Assembly: GCA_012295275.1 (NCBI GenBank)
Contig: CM022670.1
Coordinates: 15,500,001 to 15,564,000, forward strand
Reading direction: 5' to 3'
Source: Chrysomallon squamiferum
Lineage: Eukaryota > Animalia > Mollusca
DNA length: 64,000 nt
The notes under the pieces were generated by a model. It did no database searches. It saw only the letters and a program-made list of their open reading frames with translations, and had not been told where the DNA came from. Below, piece by piece: positions 8,501-63,264 of the stretch. The translations under genes were made by a program, and so were the position numbers. Every line of letters begins with the position of its first letter. Position 1 is the first letter of the stretch.

Positions 8501-9942
8501 ACATGCATACACATATTACTTTGTGATACTGAATACTTTTTTGCATCCAGTTTTAATATGGATAAATGATACATTTATAAAAATTCGCAAGATCTATGTG
8601 GCTAATGAGGGAAGATCTGCAAAAATCTGTCCAAGAGCAATCTTAGAAATTATTTCTTTGTAAACACTGTAGCAGATTCAAAAAAATAATAAACATATGC
8701 ATGGTAACATTGAAAAAAAAAAAAAATTACTAACAACGTTAAAGACATGAATGAAATAATGACATTAAAGAAACTGAAATTTATACAGTAAGATCTCATT
8801 AGGACCCGAGTACATCATGACATGAGAAATAAGGTGTGTGATTAAACAGAACAGCAAGATATAAACTTTCGCATGTAGTATAGTTGTAGACTCAATAATT
8901 TTTCCCCAATTAATGTTCTTGTAAATTGCCAATTTGTTTCCATGTTGGATGCTGCATGTCAACTACACACATATAAAAAAACGATCAAAGTATACATCAT
9001 GTTTATGCATGTCAGTGCAATATGCTTTACATACATCAATAATGCCAACTCCGATTTAATTTGCAAACAATATTTACTTTTCAATATTTGACCACATTTT
9101 ATTAATAATGGTACTTGTAGAAGTTGTACATACACAGTAAAAAGGTTTTGAATCAATTACATGTTCCTTTTGCTAAAACTGATCGTCTTTCCAGCAATGT
9201 TACCATCATGAAGATCAGCTTACAGTTTGTCATCTCCAGCAATTTATTCACGATGCAGTCAATTTGTTTGGTCTTCCATACAAATAATGATGAAATCTGA
9301 TTTTCATGATTTTTCCAGCACAAAGTACTTTGAAAATCAAATTTAAGAAATTTAGAGAGCACTTTCAATGACTTAAACATACCCTGAGACAGGCCTACTA
9401 AGTTAATTAGGTTGAAGATTAGTGGGCATGCTCATCTGGATCTGATGTCAAACATCAAAATGAAATATTTGTCCAAAAAAGGTAACATTTTTAATACTCT
9501 AACAACCAAAGAACCAAAGGCAAATTAACAATTAAAAGATAAACTACTTCTAAATGATTATGAAGTGCTTAACATCATCAAAGATATTATCTTACTGTTA
9601 TCAACTGTGTCCTTTAACTTCATCAAAGGGGCTGAGACTATTCCAGTGGAATATCATAACAGATCAATATACCAAGTTATCAAGAATAGGTGAAACTTAT
9701 TCATTAATGTGAATTAAACATTTCGACCACATAGTTATGTTTATATTTAGAGCCGAACATTCCAGAATTACCCAATAGTTCCAAAGTTTTTTAAATATTT
9801 TATTTGTTGGTGCTTTTTACACACAATGGCCATTTTGTAGAGATCTCAATTTTTAAGGGACCATTCTGAAGTACATTTACACTGATATGTGAAGCCAAAG
9901 TTGATAAAATCATTCGTCTGTGCTAATATATACACAGGGTAA

Positions 9943-9983
<41 letters not shown>

Positions 9984-11915
9984 CACATACATACATATTT
10001 TTATAGATTTGTAACTACCTTACTAGTCCTACAGTTTTTATGCCAACTTGGAAAGACTTGGATGATGGAATAAATTAGAGCATTTTAAACAAGAGTATAT
10101 TAAGAACATATAGACAAGAACTAGATGGATAATGAATTGTACTGTAATAGTACTTACAAAGTTACATGCGGTGTATGGTGTTGTGAGTATAGTAGAAACT
10201 GAATTTCCCTTTACTAAGTGACTTAAGAAAGACATATTTTGGTTTTGGGAGCTTGTTTGAATGTGGACACTGTGAGGCACATATCAAACCAAAAAGGAGA
10301 CTCAACAAGGAAATGTAGTATGTTTTGAATACATGTGGCTATTATATCATCACAGTCCAACTGAAGTAATGTGAATATTTTTTTTTGCATTATCAGGTAT
10401 CAGAAATAAACAGCTCAAAGTCAGATCTTCAGATTTTGTGCAGAAGGTCTCGGCTGTCTTCAATAGCTTACTAAAAAGTGGTGTGCTTAAACAACATCAT
10501 AATGATAATTTTATTCACCAACAAGATCCTTTAAAAAAAAAATATATGGAAATCATGTTGTGGTTCAGGAGAATCAATATGATCAGTCACTTTCTGACTC
10601 ATAGGGAAAGTACTCTGGCAGCCATGATTTATCATATAGTTTCAATGAAAACATTTGACTAGATCTTTCTCGGGCACTGGCTTAGATTGTGTTATTGCAT
10701 GAAGTTTCAATTACACTTTTTAAGAGATTAAATGTTGCTGTTACCAGTGATATTTTTTAAAGGGATCTTATTTGAAAATAGTAGACTCTTTACAAAATAA
10801 AATTATTTTATCAAGCTTTTCTTAGCAAAGACCGTTATACTGGATACATAGAGGGCAAGTTAACTTTTGTATGGTCAAGACTTTTTAAGCAAAGAAAATT
10901 AACCCCATCAGCTTAAAATGTAGTGTGATAATAATGTTCAAAATGCAGTTTGGAGAAACATACTGGGATGGATCACTACCCGACTGAGATTACACTTTTT
11001 TTACAACAGAAACTGAGAAGGTAATAGCTGAGCAATAAACACAAAAATAAGACTTCAAATTTTCCATCCATGAAGTTTTTATTCTGAAAGGACCCCAAAC
11101 TGTGAATAAATCAAGCATTCAAAAGTTAGAAAATATAGCATTGCAGAACAAAATTACAAGCATTTTGCAATTTATAAACAACATTTTCAAAAATGTTTAT
11201 CAAGCGAATCAAATAGACCAATCAGAATGATTCCCAAGCATAGCTAGTAATGTTTAGAAAATTCAATTTTTTTTATATAATATTAATATATAAATTTAAA
11301 TCATTAAATTTCTTAAACATATGACATTCTAAAAAAAAATCAGTATCTTTGCATAAGGTGAAAGACAATTAATAGTAATACTAATAGTAATACTACTGAC
11401 GTACTATACTTATAATACTAAGTTCCCATCAAGTTATCTAACAATACCATTGTCCATTTCGGGTGGGGGGCGAGATTTAATTTTATTCATTCATAATGCA
11501 TATTCCTAAAAGATAAATGTTTATAAAACGTCTGAAGTTGATGGGGGAGAACGACCTTGCGTCTACAGCTGAACCCACGTGGTGGAAATGATCATTTCCG
11601 AATTTTTACATGAACATTTTGTACGGTTTCAGTTTTTTAATTTGTATTAAGCAACCAACAGAAATTTATTTTTAAAAATTAAGAAGCATTCTAACACAAT
11701 ACATCACAGAAAATATTCATCTTTACCCTATCAAACTGTAAGAAAAGGAAAATTAAAAACAACATGGCGTCGTTTCTTATTTTAAAGTACCATGTCCTTT
11801 GTTTCTGTAACTCACCCTGAGATAACAAGCGACCTGAATGTGAACTTGGGTTTGTCTGTTGCATTTCCATTTTTAGCTCTTCCAAATAAGCATTTGGCTC
11901 TGGTTTAGCAGCCAT
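5502..11915 (-). CDS. KHDRBS: KH domain RNA-binding STAR protein, KHDRBS/Sam68/SLM family, 343 aa, 9 exons
   Basis: Phase-consistent GT-AG exons: 11915-11816, 8329-8208, 8059-7943, 7583-7440, 7239-7082, 6838-6706, 6434-6352, 6220-6153, 5608-5502 (1032 nt). QUA1-like YLEELKME; KH core [50 protein letters not shown] and [13 protein letters not shown]; QUA2-like NDEIRMQQ; RG/RGG-rich and Tyr-rich regions; C-terminal RTHPYG resembles the Sam68 PY-NLS. Confidence 0.93.
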
Positions 11916-12015
11916 TTTTTCAAAAGTTTTTTGGTTCTAAATAGTAAAACAAGTTCCTTAAAAAAATCCCACCTAATGACCGAGAGCTTTTTACCTCACC
12001 GGCTGGTATATCAAA

Positions 12016-13366: not shown

Positions 13367-16105
13367 ATCTAGTCAATAAAGAAGGTAGCCTTACTGAGTT
13401 AAATATGTTTTGGGCCTGATTCAATTGATAGATGAACATGAAATTGTTCCCGAGTAAGACTGGCATTTGCAAATAGGTAATTTTTCTATTATTTTGATGT
13501 TCACTTCTGCAGACCACTAAAATAGAGTTGTCGTTCGTGAGTTGTTATATTTCAAGAATCGGGCACCACCGCTTCACTTCAAAAGGCTATTAATCAGTAA
13601 ATCTGCTTTAAAATATTCAGTAAATTAGCTTAACATTTTGCAGTTGGGAAGTCGCCCCATTAATCAAAAAAAAAAAAAAAAGAAAAAAGGAGGTAGCGAA
13701 AGCCCCTAGTGGCCATAAGTTTTAGCGGGTAATAGTATCGCTACTCATTTACTAATTTAGTAATTACTTACTTACCTGTTACTAATTTTACTTGATAGAA
13801 AAGGAAATCTATCAAAATAATTGTTCAGCATCATTGAAAGGTTTCTCTTCTTTTTTTTATTATTTTTTTTATTCCCCTTGTTAAAAATCAGTGCTTGTTT
13901 TGTTTTGGGGGGGATTTTTTGTTGTTGTTTTTGTTTTAACTTTTACTTAAATCGAAACGCATCTTTTCTCGCATAAAACCTGAATGACAATGTAAATATT
14001 AAATTTATTAAATACTCTGCATTGTTCCGTGGATAAAACATAAAAATTAATTTTAGAATATAAAATCCCATAATAATAATCATTAACAAATCCAAACATT
14101 CTTAACGTTTTCATTTTTTTATTATAATTATGGGCCAATTTCAACAAAAATAGCACTAGATTACCGATCTAATTTGGCTATGAAATAATAAAGTATCAGT
14201 ATTTCAGTTTAAAATCAGTTTATAAAACTTTCATAGTATATACTAAATGTTTTGTTACAATTTTCATCTGAAACACAGTGTATATAAAAAAAAAAAAAAA
14301 CCCCAAAGCCACCATCAATAAGAATCATGCGAGACAGAACAGCAATTTTAATATTTTCCTAAATTCCAAACATATTTTTATTTATTCTGATAAATTTTGA
14401 TCAGTTATTTCAAGCATTGTTCCATGACCAACACACATAAGAATGGGTAAATAAAAACTTAGCTCTTCTAATTCTGATGAAATTTTTTGTGTAAGGTAAC
14501 TGGGGCTGAAAACATTTCCATTTATCACATTTGGATAAACAGTGTCCGAGATTTGGCAATTTTGACTAAAAATGTATGTTGCCACTAGCATTCAAATGAT
14601 CATTGCTTAGCAATCAACTGGTCAGTTTTATACGTTGGTATGTAACTAAAAAGAGTTAATTTCATAAGGATTACAAAAACTGCATTATTTTTTTAAATTG
14701 GGATAATTTCAAGAGCCATGACCCGATGAATTTTTCATTGCTGATGTGGATCACATAACCTTGAAATGACCTTTATTTTACCATGTTTTCTACATAATAT
14801 AAAATAATTGGAGTTTATTTTTCATGTTAATTTTGACTAAATTGTACACTAAGAAACAGATGAAGCCCATTTCCTATCCAAGACCAAATCTGGTTTATCA
14901 AAGACCATCATTTTCTTACCACTGAGAAGTTGCATGTAAAGAATATTTTGCTGTTAGCAGGGGGATGGTGCTGATTCATCATGCTTCCAGCATGATCGTC
15001 TCTGTAGTATTTAATTATTCAAGCATGTGATTTTTGAAACCATATTTTTTCTTTATCTCTTCATGTATTTATTACCTTTATCATTTTTATTTATTTATTT
15101 TTATTTATTTGTTTATTTATTTATTTTACACAGAAATGACCCTGAATCTATAAGAAGTGAATGATAATAAAATTTCAATAATGAAAAACATGACAAATAA
15201 TTTAAAAGCTTTTATTGAAGGTACTTAACAGAAAGCTTACATAAACACAAACAAAAGCTGGCCAATCCAGCAAAGCAGGTGTTTCCTTTGTTTGTACACC
15301 AGTGGACTCATTTCCTCCATATAAATGGAAACCTGAATTGTTTTGAACTGTTTGCTTGAAATAAATATTAAAAATTAAATGAGATACATCTAAAATAGGA
15401 ATATCAAACAAGACAACAACAGATTCTGAATACTATTACTAAACAAAATGATGTCTGAAATCACTGTGATTTTGGATAATTATTGACCTATTCTGCTTGT
15501 ATCAACATCATGCAAACAAAAGGAAACTAATTTAGAAAACATATCAAGCAAATTAACACTAGCAATTTAAAAAAAAAAAAAAAAAAAAGAGAGAAATATA
15601 CAAACAGCATCTGAACAGAGAACTTCCAAATATTCAAACAAAAGTTTATCTTTAGTCACCATTTTTAAAATTGTTTTCAAATTTAATTCTGAAAGGGGGT
15701 GAATTTAACAAACTAACCTTAAGAACTGAGAAAATAATCAAATATTTATTTGCAAGATTATCAAACCATCAGCAGTGCTTTATATTTGTGATGACTTGGT
15801 CCCATATTCTCATCTTAGAGTATGTCTATTTAATGTGGACTTGCACACATATTGGTAGATAATTTAATCCATTGGACTATTCTTTTATTTAATCTTATTA
15901 CTTGTACAGTTTTTACTGGTGTAATGGCAAAACAAATTTAAGAAGAAACCTGTCACACTAAAATCATTTTACTCTTGGTTATTAAAAATAAAACAAGTGA
16001 AGATTAAATGTATTAAGGTACATTTTATGTGGCAAATAATTAAAAATTATGTTAATTAACATTTAACAGCAAATTAACATCTTGAAGTGTAAATTTATCT
16101 TATCA

Positions 16106-16198
16106 ATTAATTAAAATTTATCAGGTTAGTATATTATAATCTTGTGTGGGAAAGATTTCTAATTAATTAAAATTTATCAGGTTAGTATATTATAATCT
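16106..16198. repeat. Short tandem duplication in the ODC 3' UTR
   Basis: aattaattaaaat(t)ttatcaggttagtatattataatct occurs twice, about 55 bp apart. Confidence 0.7.
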
Positions 16199-16343
16199 GA
16201 TGTTGAAAGGTTTCCATTATAATATATATGACTGGCACTTATACAAGAATGAAAGAAACAGAAACCCTAAACAACAAGAATGAGACAAAACTGTAGATCT
16301 ATAACCCAAAAGTAACAACTATAGTTCTAGGGAAAAGAAAACT

Positions 16344-19300
16344 TCAGCAAATAATATCTTCACAGAGTTTATCAAAATTGAGTGGCGACCCAAACATGTC
16401 ATCTGCCTGCTCAGAGTTGGAGTGGATGTTGATCCCCGTCTTTAGGATTGGGATAGCCTTTGATGGGATTCTCATCTCGGTCTTTTTCTTCTGTTCTGGA
16501 TATAAAGTGTACCTGCAAAACATTGAATAAAATCAGCTTTCTTTAGCATTTCTAAAAATGACTGCTGAACGATACCAATGTTTAAATATTTTCATAAACA
16601 GAATGAAAAAAAAATGCACCACTTATGATTATTAATTCCTCTTTTTAACAGAATCATTATACTGATCACCAGTTTTCATGACAGAATAAATGTAACATCT
16701 GCAATAAGCAAGACATTCTTTAGCAGAAATCTATTTTTCACAATACTTTTGTTTTGCATAATGTTTTTCAGAATTTATTCTTTTGGCTTAACAGTTCAAA
16801 AAGTAAAATAAATTAACTTAAGCATTTACCAGTATTCCTCACTGCAATATAAGTAACACCAGGGTCGAGGCATTCCATTAAAGCAGGTGGAAGCAGACAT
16901 GGTATATGCCCCCATATCCTCAAAGAACAGCCAGTCTCCAACATTAAGTTCTGGGAGTAGGCAATCCTCCATGATGCAATCAAGCCCATCGCAAGTTGGT
17001 CCCCAAATGCTTGAGGTAAATGTGTTTTCATCCTGACAATCCTAAAGGAACATACTTGTTTCATTAACAATTCAACAATTATTTAACATTTATTTATTTA
17101 TCAGACAAAATGACATCTAATATAAAAATAGTGTTTGTTATTTAATATTTTAGAAATTTTTCTGTTTTATAAAGGTTTTATTTCAATCCGAAGTTGCTTA
17201 AAGAAACATACCTGGACCAATGATGGTTGCACCTTAGCATGATCAAACAAGAGACAGTTAAATGAGCCATACACTCCATCATTTACGTAATACATGTATG
17301 CTGGTTCATCATTTGGTGTGACAGTTGTTAGCTCCATGTTACCTGAAAGAAAACAGGTTAATAAATTACATACAGCACTCGACGGAGGTGATATTGTAGT
17401 TTCGCCATGAATATATAAATAATATTGAAGCCATACATTATGTTTATAATGTGAAAATTCAAAATGTATATTTCCATTTATCAGAAATGAGAAAAGCTAC
17501 CTAACAGTACATTTAAAAAATTACTGTAATTATACAATTTATTAGCACACACTTAACCAAAAATTACTGCTCCTTCAAGTTTTAACAGTGTGATAATCTT
17601 TCATATTTTACTTATAAGCTGAAGACATGAGAACTAGAAACCTATTTTGAATCTAAAGCAAGTATGAGACTTCAGAAACAAGCTATATTACAAAGAAAAA
17701 TGCAAAAAAAATCTTTCTGTGAATTAAAATAAATTTTTTAAACATACCATTCTTGGGCCTGTCTCGAAGGACAATGCGTTTGGCAATTATGTTGACTGCC
17801 AGTGTGAAGGCTGAAGCGACAAAGTATCGACCTGGTTCTGCAATAATTTGTACACCTGAGTCAGCTGGGAAGTATCTGTCCAGAGCTTCGTTAAGAACTT
17901 CAGCAACCTGAAAGAATAAATTAAATATTGTTCAGATTGTATCCATGCATGGTGATATTATGTACTTTGTGTGTAGCAGGGTAGGTTAATGAAGTAAGTT
18001 TTTCAAATCAATTACAATAACAACATTTACAGGCAGATTTCCATATATATGTAGTCAGAATTTTCTTATATTTTTAAAACAAATATGCAGTGAGATGGGA
18101 AACAAATATATTTTGGTACATTTAACTTCGATAATTGAAGTAATTTTTTTTTTTTTTTAAATACATTAAATTCAAGAAAGCAGTTGCTAAACATAATTTC
18201 TTTTAAAGGCAAAAGAATTTGACTAAATTATTATTTTTACCTCCTTGAAGGTTATTGGAGCTCTTTTCTGTCCAGGGAATCCTCCTCCAACATCAAGCAG
18301 TTCAAAGTTGAAGCCCAGACTTTGTCCCAGCTTGAAAACATAGTAGGCCTGCTCTACTGCCGCTGCATATGCCTCAGCCTCCTCAGCCCCACTTCCAACA
18401 TGAAAACTAAACAAACAGTGTGTGATTAGTCACAAAAGTATACTACAAACAATAACATTATATATATATATATATATATAAAACAATACAGCATCTACAG
18501 AACATCTTTACAAGTGAACATCCTTATTAGTAAGAATACTCTGTTGTTTAAAGACTAATGTTGGCTTTTATTAGTTCATGTGCATACCTGATTCCAATTA
18601 CATTTAGCCCAAGTTCTTTTGCTTTTGTCAGCAGATCTACGGCTTTGTTTGGGTGACATCCAAATTTGATACCTAGGTCACACTGAACTTTGAATTCTGT
18701 AGGGGGCAAGATACGCAGTACCAACCTGAAAACAAAAAAAAATTATTCTTTTTTTTTGTTTTTAATCATACATATATAAAGTTGCACATTTTGTTTTTTA
18801 AATGTTTTCAAATAATTTTTAAATAGAAGATAACTACGTTTATCTGTTATGAAACATAAATAACATTAGGGCATTAAAAAAATATAACATGTAACAGTAC
18901 TGATTACATATTTCTGTATTACTGATTTTATCACGTTTAAAACAAACAAATGAGGACTACGCAACTGAACTTACTTGGCTTCTGGGAATGCCTGTTTGAC
19001 TTTGTACAGTTCTGCTTCATTATCAAATGTCATTGTCCCAACATTTTGTTTTGCTGCGTAACGAATGAAGGATTTCTGTTTACATGGGTTGGCATATATG
19101 ATGCGTGAAGGTGGCACCCCAAGATTTAGAATCTTTTCAATCTCTGTCTGCAAGAAATATGTAACAGTGAGATCAAAATATATTCAAAAACTCACCATAA
19201 CAAAAAACCAAACAAAAATATAACATAAATTTATTCAACTTATTGTGACTGAAAAAGATTATTAATGAAATGTTTCCCTGATCGGTGTATTTCCAGACAA

Positions 19301-20705
19301 TGCTAGAAATGAATTAGTGAAAGCTTTGCATATAATGTGAAGTATTCTAGGTAGATGCAATTTTATACTAAAGCTATGCTTGTTTAAGGATTAAAACTAT
19401 CTTTCTCAAAATCCAAGTTATTTTTAAACGACATTGTTTCTTAAACTTTAAAAAAAAGCAAGAACATACTTGAAAATGATAATCCTGATTTAAACAAGTC
19501 CAACAACAAAGGGCCTCTGATCAAAATTTATTTTAACTGTCATGTTTAAAAAGCCATATATATCTTTTGTTCTGTTCCTTTTAAATATATCACTTATGTC
19601 TAAGAATTATGCTCTAATTATTTGTGAAACTTTTAGTAATGCAGATTTTATTCATGACTGATTTTATCTTACTTTTTTCATCTACAAAGTAACAAATATT
19701 TTTTCAATAAATTATTGGAATAATCAGAAACATTAGCAACATTTAAAGAACTAACCTTGCTTGCACAATCAAACGAGGTTCCCAGGTCAGCTAGAAGCTT
19801 GATTACTGCATGATCGTCATTGCACTTGACAGCTGTAGGATAAATAGAAAATAAAACAATTTTAAACTATTTCTGATGAAGTATTTACTGTCTGAGTCAA
19901 AAACAATTTCCACACATTATTATATCATAATGTAATATGAACAGTTAACTACTGAACAAATTTTCTCAGTGCAAATGAAAAATGCTTATTTGACAATTTA
20001 TAATTTTGTCATGCATTTTTGTAACAAAAGTTCTATTTTATAACCAATCTTCAAACATAAACACTCTAAAATCACATGTATTCCATTATTATGATTATAT
20101 GTATTAAAAAGAAATAAAATTTAAAACAGAAATGCCAAATTTAGTTTACCATAGAATGGATGAACTCGTGGAAGAAGTTTTCTCCATGTCTGATATTTGA
20201 TGATGATGTCTCCTAGATCGGCCACAAAAAAGGCATCCTCATTATGCTATAAAAGGAATAACATTAAATTTAAAAAATGAAAAATATTTCTGTAAGAGAA
20301 TAACCGAAAGTTTACTTTTGTACAGAAAGAAAATTAGGTTATCCAAGTTTGTAACAGATGGCAAACAATTGTAAGTTACTGACAGGCTGTAAGTGAAACA
20401 AAAACTATGAAACCAGTTTAATAGAAATGCCTCACAAAGTTGAAGTTAGTAATATATATCTAACAAACATTTTAATTTCAAAAGCTTTGTTTGTATTTTT
20501 GGGGATAAGGTGATCAGAAGAAGTCAATTAGTAATTTATTACACATTCCATTTTTTTTATTTGTAAATATTATACTTAAAAAAAAGGTCTATAGCATTCT
20601 AACCTCAGACTCCAATGATGCAATCTTATCAATAATAATATTATTCTTTGGTTTAATGTAAGGAAGTGACTCCACAACACAACCATTTCCGATATAATGC
20701 TTCAT
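16344..20705 (-). CDS. ODC1: Ornithine decarboxylase, 474 aa, 10 coding exons, catalytic motifs intact
   Basis: Phase-consistent exons: 20705-20604, 20246-20150, 19832-19756, 19147-18975, 18725-18588, 18406-18241, 17907-17748, 17342-17212, 17041-16830, 16512-16344 (1425 nt). Motifs PFYAVKCN (PLP lysine), [62 protein letters not shown] (catalytic Cys), MGAYT, FNG. Confidence 0.96.
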
Positions 20706-20848
20706 TCTTTTATGTTAGAGTTAATGAGTCCACTAATGTACAAACAACCTGAAATAAATTATAAACAGTATTGCAAGCATTAAGAAATAAAATGGGTAAA
20801 AGTTTAGAAACTTATAAATGAAAAATGTTTGGCTTTATGAGCATGTTA

Positions 20849-20880
<32 letters not shown>

Positions 20881-21320
20881 TAAAACAGCAGAATCTCAAT
20901 ATCAGAATATGTCATTAATCGAGCAGTAATACTTTTTAAGTATAACTTCTCCAAGTCAGCTGGCCTCTATTGTCAATATTAAATTAATTAAATGATATTT
21001 AAATGATATTACTTGATCTGTCAGTATATGTTATCTGCAATGACTAAACTTTCTAAAGGAAATGCATGTTGCATGACCTGATTCTTCATAATTGTTATAC
21101 CTTTACCAAATATATGTATCTCTCAAATTTGAAATTTTGACTTTAGCCAGAATGTATCACAATTACTAAAATCTGTCATGCAATATGCATGTGTAACTAT
21201 ATGGGTCACACAAAAAGGGGGAAAAAATCATCATTAATGGGAATATGAGAAATTAAAAACTGAGTATTTATATATTAAAACTATCTACCTGGCCAGAGAA
21301 ACACCTGCTTTTAGCAGATA

Positions 21321-24300
21321 CTAGCTGGGCTCCCAAGGTGGCTCTGCGTTGAAGTCAAACTTCCTCTTTGAACGACGTAAGCCCTCTGGGCTTTCCGTGT
21401 AATAGACAGTCGTCAGACTGTCCTGCAAAAGACAAAATAAGCCAAATTTAACTATGTGTTTAAAATATATATACACACTTCATTATCTGATATTTACTAT
21501 TACTATATAACTGTGAGTGTTACTGCACATTATTAAAATACACCTGAAAAAGTTTTCACTTTATCCTAATTGTAATTACTAGTAAAGAGGAGGCATGATC
21601 CTTTTAATAATTTGAACCAAACCATCATGTTTGAATCATTATGCAATGCTGGACTACTGAAACATCAAGTGAAATAATTTAAGGAAATAATTTGATTGTC
21701 AACAAAACTGGTTTTAAAGGTTTTATGTTGTTATTGTGGTGGTGATTATGTCAAGTCTGTCTGTAATGACTAGTCCATCAGATATCAACAGGGTCCTGAA
21801 TTTCAGTTATCTTCAGAATTTATATGAACCTTTAAAACAATAGTAACTTTTGTAGAATTTCAGTATTTTGTCCCATTCATCACAGAATGACTTGTGCTTA
21901 GTTAAATTATAAGTCAACAGTGATTGTGTGCATATGTGTGTGTGTGCTAACATGTGCAATACATACAAAACAAAATCATTTACGCAGTATAAAATAATAT
22001 TTGCTTCTGATGCTTTTGACATTTTTTAGATCATATGTGAATCATTTTCATCTGTCACAGATTCATTATTTTATGCTTATTAACAGCTAATGGTGAAGGT
22101 GTCAGGTTATTTTTGTGACCCGTATACATGTATTACAACAGAAAGGAAATTTTGTTAAAATCTTATTTTTTAAACAAAGTTTTCATATGATACATTTACT
22201 GAATTTTAGTCACAAAATCAAATAAAAAGTAAATAAACACAACAATGCAAATATAAAAGTACCATTTCCTACTTAGTATTAAAAATATGTTCAGAACAAT
22301 CTTCATAAATCAACTACTCTGTATCAAAGCTAGAAAGATAGTTCAGCGGTCCCTCCTCCTAATAATAACTGATGAAAAAATGTTTGTGCAACCTAATCTG
22401 ACAATCAACAGCCAAAAAGTGTTGATAAAGTTGTCATGTAAATGAATGTAAAATAGTGTCATGCTGTAACTACACTAGATGTGTAGTCTATTGTTATATT
22501 TAAGCCTGTATTTTTTCTTGGTTAATATCATTTTCATTTACTTTGATAAAGGATGTCTTAAATGGTTTTTATAATATTACAATTATATAATTTCAGTCTT
22601 TACCAAATATCAGTATGTATATTGTACAGAAAGATGTGATGGAACATAATCAACTTGTGGTTTTCCAAAGACTGAATGGATTTTTCATTAGATAATAATT
22701 TATCAGATTATATTAATGCACAAAATGAATAAACTACTATACAACAGAATGATGTTAATAGAGATCAATGTAAGTTCAAAAACAGGAAAACAAACATTCC
22801 TAGTTTTTGTTATTTCTCTGAAAATGGTGAAAGGTTCTGCTGCCACAGAAGAACACAGTTTAAGACTGGAGATTTCATTTTAAATCCATAACTGGTTTTC
22901 TACTGTGTATAATAATTACACTAATAGTGCATGTCATTTAAACTGCTGTGATATGGGAAAACAGACAAGAATATCTCATCTACTATTCATATTTATCATG
23001 CTAAATTCTTAAGGGTAAGCTTCAAGACATTTTATATTCAGATAAGACATTTCATTTTTACTGGACCTTTACTGTGAAATGTTTTTTGAAGTTAGAATTA
23101 GTTGTATAAAACATCATTGTAGTTTTGGTTTGTCAAATCAACCAGTTTAGTGTTTTTGTTAGCTATAGTGCAGCTAATGTTTGTTTATTTTAAATCATGT
23201 GAGTTACAAAGTAACATGTTTTTTTTAAATTTCAGGTCAGTTTTGTTTATTTGTCTATGTTCAGCCATGTGCATAAAAACAAACCCAGTAACTGGCAGGA
23301 TAAGGTCATGTGTTGATAAAATGTGTCACCAACCTGTGTTTATAAACATTTAAAAAAAAAGTATGTGTTTTTTCAAATATAAATCCTAATCATCCTCTTA
23401 AGTATTTATATAAAACCTGTGATATTTTATATTACTTTTCTCTGTATTTATTTTTATGTCAAAAGAAGAAACTGTATCAAAATTCAGAGAAAAAATGAAA
23501 TCCTCAAAACTGTTAATATAATTTGTATTTTATACCATGAGACAATGATTCAAGGCAACCTTGATAATTGATGTTATCTGGGAGTAAGTAAAAAAAAAAA
23601 ATAAATTCATATTTGAATTTATGTACATAACCTGAAGATTATCTTTTTATGCTGTTGTTATATACGACTACTCACTGTGTAACAAACTATGGGACAAAGC
23701 CCCAACACACCAAGTTTTGCTCAAGTTAATCTCATATCTTTGCAAATAAATCTGTCTACCTTTCATCTATGTCTCTGTTATGTATGTGAGTATAATTTTG
23801 TTAGTTCTACATCTACATTCAATCTGCATCACATTTAAATTACACGTGGCTAGTTTTCAGAAAGTGAATAGACTGATGAAGCATTTGGGGTACCTCACAT
23901 CACTCAGAATGAACTTTGTATCACTGAAATGTAAGTCATTTTTCAAAGCAGTGTATTAACATCTTTAATTTAAAAAATACAAGTTAAAGTGGTTATGTCC
24001 ACTATAAAACTTAATAAATTCTACGGCTATTCTGAATGAACCATTTATGATTAAATTGAGAAAAATTCACATTTTAAAATGTAAAATTATTTACCTGAAA
24101 ACACCCACGAAAGCCTACCAGTTCTAAAAGTCTTAGTTAATGTAATGACACAGTGATTGCCATTGGCACTTGTGTCAAACTGAATTCTGCATTATAAGTG
24201 CCAAGTATCAAGTCTGTATTTAATTACAAAATGTTTATGTTCTGCTACTTATTTTCAATTGTTTGACTGAACAATGGCTTCTTGAAATTACTGTCTGAAG

Positions 24301-25000
24301 CTGACCAAATCAATCATAATGAGCCAAAGTTGTGTATGTACAATACTGTATGGCTGAGGATTTCATGCAAAAATCTCTTGTGTCTTAAAAACCTATTTCA
24401 GTTCTTATTTACTCTTCTGACAAAAAATATATTAGAATAAAAAAAAACTGAGTGAGCTTAGTTAATGTTATTAAATTATTAATCTAAAGACAGACACATG
24501 CATTCGTTACAAAACATTTTAAATTTTTAAAGAAAAAGATAATATACTAATTGATTCTTGTCTATTAAATATTGTCATTCTAACTATTTGTATATACGTC
24601 TGTTGACTAAGCTGCTATTTAAATATTTTGCCTATTACTAAATACTATTATTAGCATATTACATGTAAAAGTCCAAAATTAGCAGAGGCAAAAGGTTGAA
24701 AAGCAGCAACAAAATTTGATATGATACATTATATATATACAATAATAAAAAATATATGTAAGCACATATTACAGATATATCCATTTAAGCTTAGATTACT
24801 ATTAAAAGATGTACACAATATGTTTGTCGTGGGGTTGTGTCATGAATCATTAGTCGGTATGTCTATGAAATAAACTCTTTCACTTTAGTGTCAGCCATTT
24901 GTAACACCAGCATTACACTGCACAGTACAATTTTCTGACACCGTCTCACCTGACCAGAAGGTTCAAGACCGGTTACTTCTTGTTCTCTTACGGCCGTAAT
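21321..25000 (-). CDS. Non-AUG (AUU or ACG) upstream conserved coding region (uCC) of ODC, 50 aa, two exons
   Basis: Exon parts 25000-24950 (donor cag|GTGAGA) and 21422-21321 (acceptor ttttgcAG) join in phase 0: ITAVREQEVTGLEPSGQ-DSLTTVYYTESPEGLRRSKRKFDFNAEPPWEPS*. No AUG after the in-frame TGA at 25021-25019. aagATTa and attACGg are the candidate starts. The C-terminus matches the ODC/AZIN1 uCC signature. Confidence 0.92.
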
Positions 25001-25018
25001 CTTGATAGATTTTGTTAG

Positions 25019-25048
25019 TCAGAATGATAAAAAGTAAACAGGCGACAT
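25019..25048 (-). CDS. Weak-context AUG mini-uORF (MSPVYFLSF*) in frame with the uCC, stop context UGA-CUA
   Basis: tttATG TCG CCT GTT TAC TTT TTA TCA TTC TGA CTA ACA AAA TCT ATC AAG ATT; the ATG is 48 nt upstream of the ATT. Requires the TSS to lie upstream of 25048. Confidence 0.5.
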   Translation of the reverse strand: MSPVYFLSF

Positions 25049-25111
25049 AAATAAACAGAAGAGAAAGATTCCTGCAGTGTCCGGTTCGCTCTACATGTAG
25101 ACTACATTTTT

Positions 25112-25140
25112 TTTATATATTTTTTTTCGGCAATATGGCG
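25112..25140 (-). promoter_or_regulatory. ODC core promoter: TATA box and YY1-like site
   Basis: Minus-strand CGCCATATT (25140-25132) and TATATAAA (25119-25112), implying a TSS near 25090-25065, just upstream of leader exon 1. Confidence 0.55.
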
Positions 25141-25555
25141 ATTGACCTTTGGGGTAGTAATACATTTTGGTACAACTATCTTATCTAACATAAATAATTT
25201 TCTGTGCAGTCGAGGTATCACATTACAAACAACTAACAATAAGTTCCTCAAACACTTTATTTAAATCATTATTAATAAGCATATTATTAGAAAATCAATA
25301 TTAAATTGACGGACTATTTTATGAGATAAAAAAAAAAGGAAAAAGAGGTCATTTTATCGTAGTGCAGAAGTTCATATTTAAAACCTTTTTTTTTTTTTCG
25401 TCCCCTATCGCCGACCGACACAGGTGCGTAGACCCCCAGTGATCTAGTGTTTTCGAAATGCGAAGAAGAATTTTTAAATATTATTTTTAGTCATTTATTT
25501 ATTTACCTTGTTTATCTGTTAAAGCAGATTTGTTGTTACTGTGCATGTATATTTA

Positions 25556-25610
<55 letters not shown>

Positions 25611-26737
25611 TTTATTTTTAAATTATTAACTTTGTTTTATCATTATCTTGTTCAAAAATGTTTTGAGTTTTATTTAGTTCAACCGAATACTAAAATACGT
25701 ATTTTTATGCATTCACAATATCACTCACTGTTTTGTCGATCTGATGTTGCTAGCAATAAATAATAATAATAAAACAACATTAACCTGATGGTGTATTTGT
25801 CATGGTACTATCAAAGAGTTTAAATACATTTCTAAGACGTGCATGTACTTCCTACTTCCAGTTAAATAATCAACTAATTGAATTCAACAGTCTTTCTCGT
25901 TATCGATATCGATAATGCACAGAAGCTTTTTTATCTTTTTTTTTTTTTTTTTTAACTTTATTACAAAACCATTTTTATAAACAAATGTAAAACAAAAATC
26001 GCGATTATAATACAGCAACTTTTTTTATTTATTATTATTATTATTATTTATATATATAGTTGTTTTTTTTGGGGGGGTTAGGGGCGTTTGTGTTTTATTT
26101 TCCTGTCGGAGAAAGATTTCGGAGTTTATACAATCTTGCAAATGTAATGGTTTTAATAAAAACCGAAAGATTGACTTTTATACGTTGTTAAAAGAATAAA
26201 ATTGGTCAAATTATGGCTGAAACTTTAAAAGATCATTAATTTTATTGCTAAATCAATTTGTGCTGAAACGTTATAATACTCAAGTAGTTTAAATTGGGTT
26301 TATAAGACTTAAGAATTTATTTCTGTTATTATTCTAGAACGATACAGAATTTAGAATTTTTTCTTGATGTACTGTTTGCAATTATTTAATATGAATGCGA
26401 ATACCTCCGCCTTATTGTTATACTGCTCTTAGTAAAATAATTCGTGTTTCTTCACAACTGTTGAACGTTGACAAAAAAGATACACGTATATTGAACGATT
26501 TCCACGAAAATGTCAAATTTATAATCAGAATGATATAAATATAGATTTTATTTTGAAAGGTCCAGTGTATAACGTATGCGTTCAATAAACATTAAAATAT
26601 AACACTGATATATAAAATTTAAAAAAAGAAGAAAATAACAAGTTTTAATTAATGCAACACCGCAAAACCTGTCTGTTTAATATAGTGGGAAAAAAAAACA
26701 TGTCATACTGGTATCTGTCGAGTTAGAACTAATAAAG

Positions 26738-26789
<52 letters not shown>

Positions 26790-26823
26790 TTATTTATTTA
26801 TTTATTTATTTATTTATTTTTTT

Positions 26824-26855
<32 letters not shown>

Positions 26856-26979
26856 TTGGCAAAGTTTGCTGTAATTGATGTTCCACGGTCAAAATTTAAG
26901 CAAAAAACCCCAACAGCAACAGTATATAAAATATGTATGTGTGCGTGAATGTTATATGTGTGTGTATGTACATATATAC

Positions 26980-27022
<43 letters not shown>

Positions 27023-31296: not shown

Positions 31297-34200
31297 ATGC
31301 GAGAAGATTCAAACTCCTGTTCGCCATATTCTCCAGACAGCCCACAAATAATCGAAACGGTAAGACATATATATATTTAGCATTCGCTGCTTTGTATTAT
31401 TTTTAGATATATATTTATATATGTATATATAATTTATTTTTTAACAAAGAAAGTGTCGGCCGATAAACAAGATTTTTGAAGCCTTGGGATTTTTGTATAG
31501 TCATATTTATAAATTACGTTTACCGGAAAAGTATCAGTCTGATAAGAACGAATGTCTACAGAGCTTATTTTTTACATTTAATTTTTAGAAATCCATTCGG
31601 TGTTTATGATTTTGTTTATATTGATGTTACTGCGACAACTTCATTCGGCAAATCAGCTGTTTGCGGAACATTAACATACTTATTTTTATTTACCGAAAAT
31701 ATTTCCTTTCATAGAGGTTTTAACACAGGAGTGTACAAATAAATGCAAACATCTATAAATGACTGAAAACTGTGAGAGAAAAAATTATATTCAGCAACAT
31801 ATTTTACGAAGTTACCAGCGCACTAAAATAATCAGGAAATAACAGCTAACGCCGATTTGTTTATTTTTAAGTAGGTCACTTGGGTTTTTGCTGTTTTTGG
31901 TGTAAATAAATTTACCTCGGTAATTCGAGGTATTATTCGCACTCAAGTGACTTCTGTGGAAAGGTGCACGCACTCTGCGAGTGTGATTGGAAGATGAGTT
32001 GTGCAACATTAGTTCTTGCGCGTCTGTTGCCAGTGAAGCACGCACGAACCGCGTGCTTGCCTTGCCGACATACTGTTGACAGTCCAAAGGTCGGCTGCTT
32101 TGCAAAGGGGTGTGGTTTCTTGCTTTTCGATTGAAACAATTTAGCTTCCTGTCTGGCAAATCATGTAATTTCCAGTTATAAATTGTACGAAATGCATAAT
32201 TACGACCTGTTTTTATTTTACAGAATATTTTATCAGTGTATATTGAAATAAATAATAAAAATAATGTTGACCGTAACCAATGAACTCTTCAATGACTCAC
32301 ATATACGGAAATGCTGTACAATCACGTGTCTGACCTTGCCATATTTGGAAAGTTTACACACACTAAGCACGTGGTTGTTTCAGTTAAACGCATACGCAGA
32401 CAGTTGAAATAAATAAATAAACAAATAAGTAAATGTAAACAAAAGGACAATCCACATTGTGGTTAAGCAGTTCTTCATTCAAATGAAATACACAATAGCA
32501 AAGCCTGAATAAAAGATTGTTGTTTCTTCAGGAAATAACGGGAGGAAAGTTTGTGCACACTAAGAATGAATTAGTAGTTTATACTGTTTAAAAATAGGTC
32601 ATCATTTCACTAAACAAACAAAAACAAACAAACAAAAAATGTATTGTTAACATTCATTCAGAAATTATTTTTAATACCAAGTATCGTGTGTAAGTTACAG
32701 TTGTAACGATAATAAAGATATAAAGGTAATTTGCATGTGACAGTTTGAAAATGTTTCATTTTATATATATATACACACAAATCAATAAAATTTTCAGTGT
32801 AGTTACATTTGATTCATTTCATAAACATGCAGTTTTTGAAAACAAAATTTAATTCAAATTAATTTATTCCTCTAATTTAAAAAAAAGAAAGAAACTATTT
32901 AAATTTTATTAATTTTAATCAAATATGATATTTAATGTGACATGATATATTAAAATGATTTGAAAACAGGACAGAGAAATGGTGCTGCGAGGTGGTCGAG
33001 CTACAACCTGCACTGACCCCATGGAACGCGATGCTGTCGAGACGTTGTTGTCCATCGGTAACAGTCATCAGAAACCAGTGATTGATGATTACGTGTTACG
33101 CCCTGGGAGACTGACACCCCCCTATTCCACGGGATCAGCTTCACCCCCTTGTTCTGATGATGGTTCTGACATCACATCAAGTAATGACGGACTGCAGGAA
33201 CCAAAAACCACAAGAGATTCCAAACTTGCACGAGTGAGCATCAATATATTTTGTAATAATGCAGTTACTTCCATTTTTTTTTTTTTTTTTTTTTTTATTT
33301 TTTTTTTTTTTTATTTTTTTTTTTTTTTTTTTAAAAATATATATGCAACTAGATTAATATTAGCACATAAAACTAAATGACTGATTTATTTCTGTTACAT
33401 TAATTGCAGAGTTACAGGTTAAATTTTGTTATAAACTGTAAACAGTTTTATCATGTTTAACTCCCAACAGTTTTTATATGTGAACTATTTAAAATACAGA
33501 AGGAAGTAAATTAATTATTTGAGGTCATTCTTTCTTTTCTTTTTTTTTTTTTTTTCAAAATTTAAGTTCAGTTTTTTTTTTTTTTTTTTCTTCTTTTTTA
33601 GCTTTTGCTGGAACATCCCATTCCTAAGATCAGTGTGGCAGGATTTGGATGGCAGGCAGCCAGTGCCTCATCACTGACAAAGACCACCCCTCCTCAGAGT
33701 TCCAGTGTTCCAGTGATTATGCCACCAAGAAAACGCAAATACCCACCAGAGCTTTTCGAAGGCAACAAGGACACAACCAGCTGTGTTGTGAGGGATTCGC
33801 TTACGCCACCAGAAAGTCCACGCCTCACTTCTGCACCCACGCTGCAGACACCACCCGACAGTAACAAGAATTCCCAGAAACCCGACCACAATCACAAGCA
33901 CCCTGTGCCGTCTGCTCAGCCTCCTGTTCACCAGAACTTTTATCGTGAGACAGAAGAAATTCTGAAATCGAATGGTGAATTTAGACATGAACCTCTCCGT
34001 GCTCCTCAGGGACAGTTTCCCCTCATCGTTCCAGCTCAGTCTGATCTGTCCAGGGTGCAGGGCCAGATACCCACCGCTGGTGCAAACTGTTCAGGAAATG
34101 TGCCAACTTTTATTTCCGAACAGAAATTTCCTGGGAAGAGTGCAGAAGCAATACCACAAATCAAATCTCAGATTCCCATTCTGATGCCGCTGAATCAGGC

Positions 34201-35065
34201 CCCCATTGTTCAGGTGTTTGTGCTCGGGGCGGGTGCTGTGGCGCCGCCCCGCAAGGACCACTTCGTGAAGACAGACAATTACTGTGCAATAGCGCCTGCT
34301 CCAGTGATACCTCAGTCCGGCTCGCAGACTGACGACACGTTCAGTGGCGACATGAAGCGTCGACGCAGCCACGCCTGTCATTTCAAAGATTGTGATAAAA
34401 CGTATTTCAAAAGTTCTCACCTGAAGGCACACATTCGTACTCACACAGGTAGGATTTCATTTTACATGATGTTAGAGAAATAAAAATGATCATTTAGGTT
34501 ATCTTCTAAATTTTAGACTTTTGCCATGCTACAGAAAGAGGAACTGATTGTTGTTTTCACAGCTTTTGTAAAAAGGCAGCGTGTCCTTTTCTCTCTGTAA
34601 TTGTTCACTTCTTTATTTATTTATTTATTGACATTTTTAATGTTTAATTTATATTTGTTTTCTGAAGAAAGAATAAACCTTTGACATTGGCAGTGTTACA
34701 GAAAGAGATATTCATTGTTCATTTCGCAGTATTTGTCAGAATTTTATAACTGAAATTAAACAATCATATACCATTTTTTTTTTTTTTTTTTTTCATTATG
34801 ATTAAATTTTGATTTCCGTGTTTCAGGAGAAAAGCCATTTGTTTGTAACTGGGAGTTGTGTCTGCGCAGATTTGCGAGATCTGACGAGTTGTCCCGACAC
34901 AAACGCACACACACAGGTGAGAAGAAGTTTGAGTGTGGACAGTGCAACAGAAAGTTCATGAGAAGTGACCATCTGAACAAGCACATGAAGACTCACACCC
35001 TGAACAAGAAATCTCCAAACTGGCAGACAGAACCACACGAAGATAACAGTGTTTACGTATGGTGA
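31297..35065 (+). CDS. KLF10: Kruppel-like factor 10/11 (TIEG/cabut-like), 470 aa, 4 exons
   Basis: Phase-consistent exons 31297-31359, 32970-33233, 33602-34448, 34827-35065 (1413 nt). Sin3-interaction-like [23 protein letters not shown]; three C2H2 fingers with [32 protein letters not shown] and FMRSDHL typical of KLF10/11. Exon 1 is less certain than exons 2-4; likely pro-ortholog of both vertebrate genes. Confidence 0.92.
31967..32055. promoter_or_regulatory. Two ChoRE-like (E-box-N5-E-box) elements with an intervening CCAAT box, KLF intron 1
   Basis: CACGCA-ctctg-CGAGTG (31967-31983), ATTGG (31986-31990), CACGCA-cgaac-CGCGTG (32039-32055), compared with consensus CAYGYG-N5-CRCRTG. Confidence 0.5.
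32293..32373. promoter_or_regulatory. Immediate-early-type enhancer cluster in KLF intron 1
   Basis: TGACTCA (AP-1) 32293-32299, CACGTG 32323-32328, TGACCTTG nuclear-receptor half-site 32331-32338, CArG CCATATTTGG 32339-32348, CACGTG 32368-32373, all within 81 bp. Confidence 0.55.
34568..34690 (+). repeat. About 120-bp element in KLF intron 3, copy 1
   Basis: tgtaaaaaggcagc...taattgttcacttc...(ttta)n ttgacatttttaatgtttaatttata; a diverged direct copy lies at about 36683-36820. Confidence 0.75.
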
Positions 35066-51885: not shown

Positions 51886-52749
51886 TGTATCGATTCAGTT
51901 AAATGTATTATAAACACGTTAAATTAAACGACAAAGATAGCCCAGCAAAATACTGTTTTTGTAAGAAGACAGCATGTCTCTAATTAACACACACACAACT
52001 CATCTGTCCGGTGAAAGCATCAGTAAGAAGTTATTAACGCAGATCACGACAGATACACACAAACCCGCTTCACGACAGTCTCGGTCCAGTCTGATTCGCT
52101 TGTAAGCTTGTAAGCGAAAATCAAACAATATCGAACTTGACTGCCCTGCCCTTCGCGCTGTAGTAACCCTCAGTCGTAAGCCGAGAACAATAGCGAGTTA
52201 ACAAACTGAGCACTTTGTCTAAATCCTGCCTTCACCCAGTGAAAGGTTTCAGTAAACGTTTGGCAAGCTGCGCTACCAACGCCTCGGCAACCATACGTCA
52301 CATGTCCCGCCTCTCCCAATAGAACGAACAGAAAAAAATGAAAAAGAAAAAGAAATCAGTCTATTAGATACGGGTGGCAATCAGTCATCGACGCTCGTTG
52401 TTCCTTTCATAAAAAAAAAAACATTTCTTTAATCGCTGTAAAAGGGATAAGACGTTAGATTGTTAATAGCTTTCAAAGTGAAACGATACCGACCTATGCT
52501 CGGGTTACATAATTTATGTATTATTTTCTGAACAATAAAACAGAGAATATGTAGTAAACCTTGATAGGAGAAAAAAAAAAAGAAAAAAACGCAAACCAGT
52601 ATAACAGTTCAGTTAGGATTTGCTTTAAGACTGGATTTATGAAAAAAAAAAAATAAAAAAAAAATAAAATAAAATAAAATAAATAAATAATAATAATAAT
52701 AATAACAATAATAATAATATATTTTTACTATTTATTTATTTATTTATTT

Positions 52750-62808: not shown

Positions 62809-62878
<70 letters not shown>

Positions 62879-63264
62879 TTTTTTTTTTTTTATTTATTTA
62901 GTTAGTTAGTTAGTTAGTTAGTTATATAATTCTGCTATTATTTAAATTTACTTTTACATAAAAGTTTTATACATCACTTTAAAATATATCTTGTATTTAT
63001 CGCTAAAATTTCTTTTAAATAATAGGCTATAACACTAAAATCTTAACAGTTGTTTTTGTACAGTTTATAGCTAAAAACATTCAAATAACAACCTTTAGGT
63101 ATGAATTTTGTCTACATTCCATGTTTTGAGTAACCCTAAAGCAATATACACCATGTATTTAATTTAGCAAAACTGGTGTGGTTAACTTTATTATTTTGTG
63201 TCCTTGTTGTTCTTGTTTTGGGGACTTTTCTTTTTTTCTTTCTTTTTTGTTTTTTTAATTATTA

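What the first reader, a model, noticed from the sequence alone, without database searches (positions are those of the whole stretch)
21321..25000. Intron-split, non-AUG polyamine-sensor uORF (uCC, ...NAEPPWEPS*) in the ODC leader
Seen: two leader exons 3.5 kb apart splice in phase into a 50-codon ORF with no AUG, starting at aagATT (A at -3) and followed immediately by ACG in optimal context (attACGg). It ends PEGL...FDFNAEPPWEPS-stop, about 75 nt of spliced mRNA before the ODC AUG, with no AUG between it and the main start. Established: vertebrate AZIN1 and many ODC homologs carry an AUU-initiated uCC ending PPW-x-PS-stop. High polyamines inhibit eIF5A, ribosomes stall at PPW, and queued scanning subunits raise near-cognate initiation, repressing the main ORF. 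The C-terminus here is essentially the AZIN1 one as I recall it. Inference: this active invertebrate ODC is autoregulated the same way. The mechanism class is known; this instance and its tandem AUU/ACG start are invisible to ORF callers.
Basis: partly seen in the sequence, partly recalled or inferred. Interest (0 to 1): 0.88.

Follow-up and report, generated by a model that had tools for sequence, protein, structure and literature searches.

The report
Polyamine-sensor uORF in snail ODC leader
The spliced leader of this likely snail ornithine decarboxylase mRNA holds a 50-codon reading frame without AUG that ends like the known polyamine-sensing frame of human AZIN1, so it is an ordinary member of that family and likely turns enzyme synthesis down when polyamines are high.

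Summary
Real, and a new member of a known family. RNA contigs from one study join both leader junctions, giving AUU(25000) to UAG(21321), 50 codons, 75 nt before the AUG of an intact 474-aa ODC (86% identical to a gastropod ODC). Its last 12 residues match the human AZIN1 uCC. In 14 of 16 related transcripts an in-frame AUU sits 46-50 codons before the stop, and the C-terminal half is under purifying selection. Polyamine control by eIF5A-dependent PPW stalling and queuing is inferred, not tested. In non-mollusc relatives (all UGA) that stretch evolves like a 17-codon readthrough tail; in molluscs, this window included, it is conserved only as nucleotides.

The parts
24950..25142 (-). Leader exon 1 (5'-most RNA contig end 25142; true cap site not mapped)
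   Evidence: Contigs X2, X4, X3 reach 25142, 25125, 25077 and splice at 24950
25102..25107 (-). AUG-UAG start-stop element, A at -3
   Evidence: Sequence; inside X2 and X4 contigs
25091..25096 (-). Second AUG-UAG start-stop element, weak context
25019..25048 (-). 9-codon AUG uORF in weak context, same frame as the uCC, stop ends 18 nt before the AUU
   Evidence: A short AUG uORF closes 18-23 nt before the uCC start in 6 of 15 leaders (p=0.001), 4 of 13 without the window and L092 (p=0.022)
24995..25000 (-). AUU start (A at -3) followed by ACG as codon 2
   Evidence: In-frame AUU with purine at -3, 46-50 codons before the stop, in 14 of 16 related transcripts. Use as a start is inferred
24950..25000 (-). 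uCC first part, 17 codons, poorly conserved in peptide
   Evidence: omega about 0.63 for the N-terminal part
21423..24949 (-). Intron 1, 3527 nt, phase 0, splits the uCC 33 codons before its stop
   Evidence: RNA joint. Acceptor 33 or 32 codons before the stop in 4 of 4 genomic relatives, 3 of them near-identical
21321..21422 (-). uCC second part, 33 codons plus UAG, with PEG and FDFNAEPPWEPS-stop; PPW at 21341-21333, PS at 21329-21324
   Evidence: Last 12 residues identical to the human AZIN1 uORF printed in PMC9648851 (compared by eye). Omega about 0.15 outside the search pattern
21289..21320 (-). Conserved stretch right after the stop (continues about 12 nt into exon 3); possible 8-bp hairpin at 21320-21302
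   Evidence: 71-78% identity among 6 mollusc-clade rows against 34% at four-fold ODC sites. Hairpin -7.8 kcal/mol, z -2.0; covariation p=0.063
20749..21288 (-). Intron 2, 540 nt, 32 nt after the uCC stop
   Evidence: RNA joint in 4 of 4 runs; donor 35 nt after the stop in the genomic relatives checked
16344..20705 (-). Ornithine decarboxylase main ORF, 474 aa, 10 coding exons, AUG context agaATGa
   Evidence: All coding junctions in RNA contigs; translation; K69, D88, E274/R277, C360/D361, Y389 align with human ODC; PF02784 and PF00278

Best explanation
This is a spliced, AUG-less upstream conserved coding region (uCC) of the animal ODC/AZIN1 family in front of an intact ODC, and it likely works as a polyamine-sensing brake on ODC translation. 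Shown here: the spliced frame, its expression, its conservation and selection on its C-terminal peptide. Inferred from mammalian AZIN1: at low polyamines most scanning 40S subunits pass the weak AUU and start at the ODC AUG 228 nt downstream. At high polyamines eIF5A is inhibited and the few ribosomes in the uCC pause at Pro-Pro-Trp (and probably at Pro-Ser-stop). Scanning subunits then queue back over the roughly 135 nt to the AUU, initiation there rises and ODC synthesis falls, which closes a negative feedback loop directly on the enzyme. The ACG is most likely part of the conserved AUU-NCG context and at most a minor second start. The upstream short AUG frames likely feed reinitiating ribosomes into this region and tune the set point.
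For: Both leader junctions in RNA. In a metagenome pattern scan 20 of 120 hits carry an ODC downstream on the same strand. 14 of the 16 spliced ones have an in-frame AUU with purine -3 at 46-50 codons, a feature the pattern did not ask for. Intron position is shared with 4 of 4 genomic relatives. In columns outside the pattern, third positions vary most (p=0.0005), omega is about 0.15, and window-versus-mollusc codon differences are synonymous in 20 of 48 against 0.19 expected (p=0.006). No AUG inside the uCC in 14 of 15 rows. Human AZIN1 uORF ends in the same 12 residues (PMC9648851, passage). Family definition and AZIN1 experiments: PMC2811004 section 6, PMC9082881 and PMC10855120 passages. 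ODC exons score higher against ODC than AZIN1 structures in 3 of 3 searches.
Against: No translation, ribosome profiling or polyamine response was measured; per PMC2811004 (2009) initiation was verified only for AZIN1. RNA support is one study, contigs only, and 1 of 4 runs lacks the first joint. Three upstream AUGs could intercept scanning ribosomes and change the outcome. The N-terminal part shows little selection (window versus 14: 16 of 237, p=0.62). Omega values are rough because the trees are saturated (length 17-30). Relatives were picked by the PPW pattern, so they cannot show how often ODCs lack a uCC.
Confidence: 0.87

Rival explanations
1. The ACG is a real second start: molluscs evolved a tandem AUU-ACG that raises basal uCC initiation.
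For: ACG at codon 2 in the window and 3 of 5 mollusc-clade relatives, from both the gastropod and bivalve sides of the tree, and in 0 of 12 other AUU loci. ACG is only 12% of Thr codons in 12 ODC coding regions and 1 of 20 in the window's. It always has A at -3. No relative took GCG, which would be the best +4 for AUU.
Against: C at +5 in 17 of 17 and G at +6 in 15 of 17 relatives, mostly as CCG, which is not a near-cognate start. The base after ACG is G only in the window. One C-to-A change in a mollusc ancestor explains the pattern. L022 and L092 keep CCG.
Confidence: 0.3
2. Regulation here runs mainly through the upstream AUG uORFs (ATF4-like delayed reinitiation, eIF2-linked), with the uCC as the inhibitory frame that is bypassed when ternary complex is low.
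For: Three AUGs upstream, the first with A at -3. A short uORF closes 18-23 nt before the start in 6 of 15 leaders. Vertebrate AZIN1 has 2-3 positionally conserved conventional uORFs of unknown effect (PMC2811004) and is a borderline eIF2-resistant mRNA (PMC4383229 passage).
Against: 7 of 15 leaders have no AUG in the 70 nt before the start, yet keep the uCC. The AUG-position test alone is not significant without the window and L092 (5 of 13, p=0.27). The window width was chosen after seeing the data, and relatives are not independent. It does not explain the PPW conservation.
Confidence: 0.15
3. The window's UAG is read through into a 15-codon hydrophobic tail that has a function, as the tail of non-mollusc relatives seems to.
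For: The tail starts YLLK as in relatives, and the window's net 3-nt loss restores the ancestral frame for its distal half. A coding signature is strong in non-molluscs.
Against: Among the 6 mollusc-clade rows there is no synonymous signal in the uCC frame (13 of 54, p=0.37). There are 1- and 2-nt indels, and the next stop falls at 15, 16, 19, 19, 26 and 27 codons. The stop is UAG or UAA in 6 of 6 against UGA in 19 of 19 others.
Confidence: 0.1
4. The frame is a vestige or chance, no longer regulatory in this species.
For: No direct functional data; the N-terminal part is nearly unconstrained.
Against: Intact start, phase, PEG and 12-residue C-terminus; synonymous excess in comparisons that involve the window; 0 of 100 shuffles match; no listed difference in the uCC exons in the RNA contigs that cover them.
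Confidence: 0.03

Closest known systems
Vertebrate AZIN1 uCC (Ivanov, Loughran and Atkins 2008; Ivanov et al. 2018; neither paper held, seen through PMC2811004, PMC9082881, PMC10855120, PMC9648851)
   Same: AUU start with purine at -3, about 50 codons (human 52), PEGL and the same last 12 residues, PPW and PS-stop, extra conventional uORFs in the leader.
   Different: It precedes a catalytically intact ODC, not an antizyme inhibitor; codon 2 is ACG (Thr) rather than Pro; two residues shorter between PEGL and the C-terminus; stop UAG; regulation untested.
Animal uCC of ODC homologues (six phyla per PMC2811004 section 6)
   Same: Non-AUG start, adjacent prolines near the end, Pro-Ser-stop, ODC homologue downstream; length, start and intron position shared with metagenome relatives.
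   Different: Mollusc-clade traits seen here: AUU-ACG, UAG/UAA stop, and a 2-nt deletion that takes the post-stop stretch out of the frame kept by other invertebrates. Whether the 2008 survey lists molluscs or this species could not be checked.
Pro-Ser-stop polyamine uORFs (plant AdoMetDC, yeast HOL1 MLLLPS-stop; passages in PMC2811004 and PMC10855120)
   Same: C-terminal Pro-Ser-stop that slows termination in an eIF5A- and polyamine-dependent way.
   Different: Those uORFs are short (the HOL1 one starts with Met); this one is long, AUU-initiated and adds PPW.
AMD1 readthrough C-tail (PMC13025110, abstract and passages)
   Same: A conserved in-frame extension after a stop in a polyamine-pathway mRNA: the nearest analogy for the tail seen in non-mollusc relatives.
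   Different: The AMD1 tail follows the main ORF and runs 384 nt; the tail here follows a uORF, is 17 codons, is only predicted, and is not kept as peptide in the window's lineage.

Membership tests
Animal ODC/AZIN1 uCC | Lies in the 5' leader of an ODC-homologue mRNA | tested here: met
   One RNA contig spans both leader exons and the ODC exons in X2 and X3; ODC identity
Animal ODC/AZIN1 uCC | [quoted passage not shown] | tested here: met
   aagATT; 14 of 16 related transcripts. The 9-codon AUG frame upstream is closed by a stop
Animal ODC/AZIN1 uCC | Adjacent prolines near the C-terminus (PPW) and Pro-Ser-stop | tested here: met
   definition from PMC2811004
Animal ODC/AZIN1 uCC | Peptide-level conservation concentrated near the C-terminus | tested here: met
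   Omega about 0.15 (C part, pattern codons left out) against 0.63 (N part); synonymous excess p=0.006-0.027
Animal ODC/AZIN1 uCC | Homology by descent (length, intron position) | tested here: met
   46-50 codons; phase-0 intron 32-33 codons before the stop and a second intron 32-35 nt after it
Animal ODC/AZIN1 uCC | Actual initiation at the AUU | not testable with these tools
   No ribosome profiling at hand
Animal ODC/AZIN1 uCC | Polyamine-, eIF5A- and PPW-dependent repression of the main ORF | not testable with these tools
   Needs reporters or profiling; inferred from AZIN1
Active ornithine decarboxylase (versus antizyme inhibitor) | PLP-binding and catalytic residues intact, closer to ODC than to AZIN1 | tested here: met
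   K69, D88, E274/R277, C360/D361, Y389 aligned to human ODC; bits ODC vs AZIN1 86 vs 75, 74 vs 56, 28 vs 21; 9 of 9 motifs present (motif list and residue roles recalled)
Active ornithine decarboxylase (versus antizyme inhibitor) | Measured decarboxylase activity | not testable with these tools
   Enzyme assay needed
Programmed stop-codon readthrough tail | Coding-type evolution and frame kept after the stop, in the window's own lineage | tested here: not met
   Mollusc rows: p=0.37, frame-breaking indels, variable second stop. Met in non-mollusc relatives
Conserved RNA hairpin after the stop | Compensatory base changes and a consensus fold | tested here: inconclusive
   87% paired in molluscs and 68% in others against 25-53% in slid registers, but register taken from the data, many G-U pairs, covariation p=0.063, no RNAalifold consensus; no Rfam match

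The most novel reading that the evidence does not exclude
The invertebrate ODC uCC has an undescribed second layer after its stop: ancestrally the slow Pro-Ser-UGA is read through into a conserved 17-codon tail ending LLRIS-stop that spans an intron, and molluscs, this window among them, switched to UAG/UAA and turned the same stretch into an RNA-level element (a hairpin abutting the ribosome stalled at PPW), together with an AUU-ACG start and a short upstream uORF.
Probability: 0.3. Interest if true: 0.65.

Novelty: new member of a known kind. Interest (0 to 1): 0.36.

Why it matters
As an instance it is expected: animal ODC homologues in six phyla were reported to carry this uORF. Its value is as a complete, RNA-supported invertebrate case in front of an active enzyme, where per the 2009 review the mechanism had been tested only for AZIN1, and as a leader in which the open question of what the extra AUG uORFs do can be tested. 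The comparative side result is more surprising: a coding-like 17-codon tail behind the uCC stop in many invertebrates, kept only as nucleotides in molluscs. If real, polyamine-slowed termination at Pro-Ser-stop would have a selected readthrough product. Paper searches (listings only) showed no description of it, but the two primary papers and their supplements were not available.

Tried and rejected
No whole genome is held, so paralogues outside the window and the partner genes (antizyme, eIF5A) were not checked. Only one ODC copy lies in the window. Ivanov 2008 and 2018 are not held by DOI or PMC id; their supplements may list mollusc uCCs and may already note the post-stop conservation. Viral contigs: 3 pattern hits, 0 with ODC. 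100 of 120 metagenome hits had no ODC match and were left out; 4 of them score as uCCs on the non-pattern part (L027, L052, L081, L109). Run X5 gave patchy, mostly repeat-driven cover and no splice evidence. Low intronic cover in the RNA runs is read as pre-mRNA or DNA, not as an isoform. No hairpin 14-20 nt after the AUU; whole leader z -1.5; one 60-nt window at +40 has z -2.8, 1 of 13 tested. Rfam: 0 matches in 15000-27000. Pfam: nothing for the uCC exon-2 peptide. The bacterial promoter scan is irrelevant to an animal gene. uCC-ODC fusion by readthrough was rejected: several in-frame stops intervene and the frame relation varies among relatives. The -1 and +1 frames after the stop were rejected as the coding frame in non-molluscs (0.05 and 0.20 against 0.56). 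The mollusc +1 frame shows 13 of 18 synonymous differences over only 3 codons and begins after a stop, so it was not taken as evidence of a frameshift. AUGs at the very 5' ends of metagenome contigs were treated as likely adapter remnants and not counted (only 70 nt before the start were scored). The protein tree is the quick one; the careful search did not finish. L043 and L113 are ambiguously placed by their short ODC pieces. A literature check of KLF10/11-ODC1/AZIN1 synteny found nothing useful.
Full report
Observation. On the minus strand the leader has exon 1 (to 24950), exon 2 (21422-21289) and exon 3 (from 20748). Joining them by coordinates gives an AUG-free frame from ATT 25000 to TAG 21323-21321 of 50 codons, 17 from exon 1 and 33 from exon 2, in context aagATTACGg. 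The next AUG, 75 nt on at 20705, opens a 474-aa ORF ending at 16344. Five public runs hold the stretch. RNA contigs join 24950^21422 in 3 of 4 RNA runs and 21289^20748 in 4 of 4, and all nine coding junctions in the three RNA runs laid on them. These are contigs from one study. X1 lacks the first joint and shows an unspliced contig across the donor at about a tenth of the main depth. The end-of-uORF pattern occurs once in the window and in 0 of 100 shuffles.

The gene. Three exons match solved ODC structures better than AZIN1 and keep K69, D88, E274/R277, C360/D361 and Y389 (residue roles recalled). The closest named protein is a 474-aa Gigantopelta aegis ODC-like protein, 85.7% identical over the full length. 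In a quick tree the window falls in a 26-row clade (SH-aLRT 99) with Haliotis, Pinctada, Solemya and Bradybaena. So this is most likely a gastropod, with an enzyme predicted to be active.

Relatives. 20 of 120 carry an ODC downstream on the same strand: 16 spliced transcripts and 4 genomic pieces, three of them near-identical. Features the pattern did not ask for recur. An in-frame AUU with purine at -3 lies 46-50 codons before the stop in 14 of 16 transcripts; L072 has AUC at 44 codons and L034 an AUG at 46. A phase-0 acceptor lies 33 or 32 codons before the stop in 4 of 4 genomic pieces. Pro is invariant in the PEG motif and D/N is kept six columns before PPW. Outside the pattern codons the C-terminal part has omega about 0.15 and the N-terminal part about 0.63, both rough because of saturation. 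Differences between the window and 5 molluscs are synonymous in 20 of 48 codon pairs against 0.19 expected (p=0.006), while the N-terminal part shows no signal for the window against all 14 (p=0.62). The human AZIN1 uORF printed in a figure legend of PMC9648851 (passage) ends in the same 12 residues, FDFNAEPPWEPS, and shares PEGL.

The ACG. Among 17 AUU-starting relatives codon 2 is CCG in 12, ACG in 3, ACC in 1 and CCU in 1, so +5 is always C and +6 is G in 15. CCG and ACG make up only 11-12% of Pro and Thr codons in 12 ODC coding regions. The constraint is therefore on AUU-NCG. ACG is confined to the mollusc clade (window and 3 of 5 relatives), and the base after it is U, C or U in those relatives. 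A tandem start is possible (about 0.3) but is not needed.

Upstream AUGs. RNA contigs reach 25142, 25125 and 25077, so the leader includes two AUG-stop elements (25107, 25096) and a 9-codon AUG frame (25048-25019) that ends 18 nt before the AUU. A short AUG frame closes 18-23 nt before the uCC start in 6 of 15 leaders (scan over 1000 shuffles, p=0.001), and in 4 of 13 without the window and L092 (p=0.022). The AUG position alone is weaker (7 of 15, p=0.028; 5 of 13, p=0.27), and 7 of 15 have no AUG in those 70 nt. PMC2811004 (section 6 read) says vertebrate AZIN1 has two to three positionally conserved conventional uORFs of unknown effect, so this fits the family.

After the stop. An earlier scan note (e1-8672333) said some relatives stay coding past the stop; I tested this. 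All 19 non-mollusc loci end in UGA and the 6 mollusc-clade rows in UAG or UAA. Seven transcripts carry an in-frame tail of 17 codons (19 in L020, by an in-frame insertion) ending in IS-stop, mostly LLRIS. Two genomic types not used to define the group, L043/L080 and L054, complete the same 17 codons across their intron (for L043/L080 the acceptor was picked by that outcome). In these 9, codons 9-17 differ synonymously in 136 of 232 pairs against 0.16 expected, as strong as the uCC itself (0.54). Without selecting, all 15 non-mollusc loci (L053, L080, L027 left out as duplicates, L052 as vertebrate-like) give 205 of 977 against 0.10 (p=0.0003), and the next 30 nt give nothing (p=0.86). Exceptions exist: L072 and L052 have a second stop at once, L081 at codon 3, and four others run 10-13 codons. 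In molluscs the first 45 columns are 71-78% identical against 34% at 74 four-fold ODC sites and 30-36% further on. Yet there is no synonymous signal in the uCC frame (p=0.37), a shared 2-nt deletion and further 1-2 nt indels break the frame, and the next stop varies from 15 to 27 codons. So the window's lineage keeps nucleotides, not a peptide. A hairpin starting at the stop fits the window (-7.8 kcal/mol, 8 of 200 shuffles as good). That register pairs 87% in molluscs and 68% in others against 25-53% when slid, and the indels fall in its loop. But covariation is not significant (p=0.063) and there is no consensus fold. Its role is open.

Mechanism. Shown: spliced frame, expression, homology, selection. 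Inferred from mammalian AZIN1 (passages in PMC9082881 and PMC10855120; PMC2811004): leaky scanning past the AUU at low polyamines; at high polyamines, eIF5A inhibition, a PPW pause, a queue back to the AUU, more uCC initiation and less ODC. With an active ODC downstream the loop is direct. Confidence 0.87. The upstream AUG frames and the post-stop element are likely modifiers.

Comparison and verdict. Every sequence-level defining feature of the animal uCC tested here is met; initiation and the polyamine response could not be tested. The review reports uCCs in animals of six phyla, and the scan has noted uCCs in five other genomes, none matching this DNA. Ivanov 2008 and 2018 were not held, so whether molluscs, AUU-ACG or the tail are already in print is unknown; searches (listings only) showed nothing on them. 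Other papers were seen as passages only (PMC5009743, PMC13578949, PMC13025110, PMC3105428, PMC4383229, PMC8162569). Verdict: new member of a known kind, interest 0.36; the readthrough-tail-to-RNA-element reading has probability about 0.3 and would merit about 0.65.

Noticed in passing
L004, L006, L020, L034, L076, L103, L113, L043/L080, L054 (51-57 nt after the uCC stop): In-frame 17-codon tail after a UGA, ending IS-stop (mostly LLRIS) and crossing an intron, with strong synonymous variation: a candidate programmed readthrough of a uORF stop.
   Followed up: yes
L072:345-353, L052:3025-3027, L081:250-258: Lineages that close the tail with an immediate second or third stop; L072 and L081 still show the tail pattern in frame behind it.
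   Followed up: partly
L052:2870-3050: Vertebrate AZIN1-like uCC end (PEGLG..YRE..FDFNAEPPW) with an acceptor upstream; no ODC part in the locus.
   Followed up: partly
L001, L047: uCCs ending PPWDPC-stop (Cys for Ser), with a proline-rich stretch before PPW.
   Followed up: no
L072, L034: Likely AUC start (G at +4, 18 nt after a short uORF stop) in L072; AUG in poor context at the usual start position in L034.
   Followed up: partly
window 32964-35065 (+): Three-finger C2H2 gene, KLF/Sp type, divergent from ODC. It looks KLF10/11-like by its N-terminal motif, and human KLF10-AZIN1 and KLF11-ODC1 are linked (both recalled, not confirmed): possible ancient synteny.
   Followed up: partly
window 6610-11936 (-): KH-domain gene (KHDC4/BBP-like KH, RG-rich exon; Sam68/QKI type by recall) downstream of ODC on the same strand.
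   Followed up: partly
window 51007-51894 (-) and 59833-62905 (+): A single-exon leucine-rich-repeat ORF, and a KY/transglutaminase-like gene with Ig-like KY domains and an internal 8-residue repeat.
   Followed up: partly
window 25132-25146 (-): Initiator-like TCAATC and a CGCCATATT (YY1-like, recalled) motif at the 5'-most RNA contig end, suggesting the cap site is near 25143.
   Followed up: no
window 24826-24978 and intron 1: Unspliced contig across the exon-1 donor in X1 (depth 25 against 233) and low cover along intron 1 in all RNA runs.
   Followed up: partly
P0001-P0003: The closest named species has three ODC-like paralogues; whether all keep a uCC is unknown.
   Followed up: no
window 21289-21422 (-): The uCC stop lies upstream of ten exon junctions, so ribosomes ending there could also expose the mRNA to nonsense-mediated decay (inference).
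   Followed up: no
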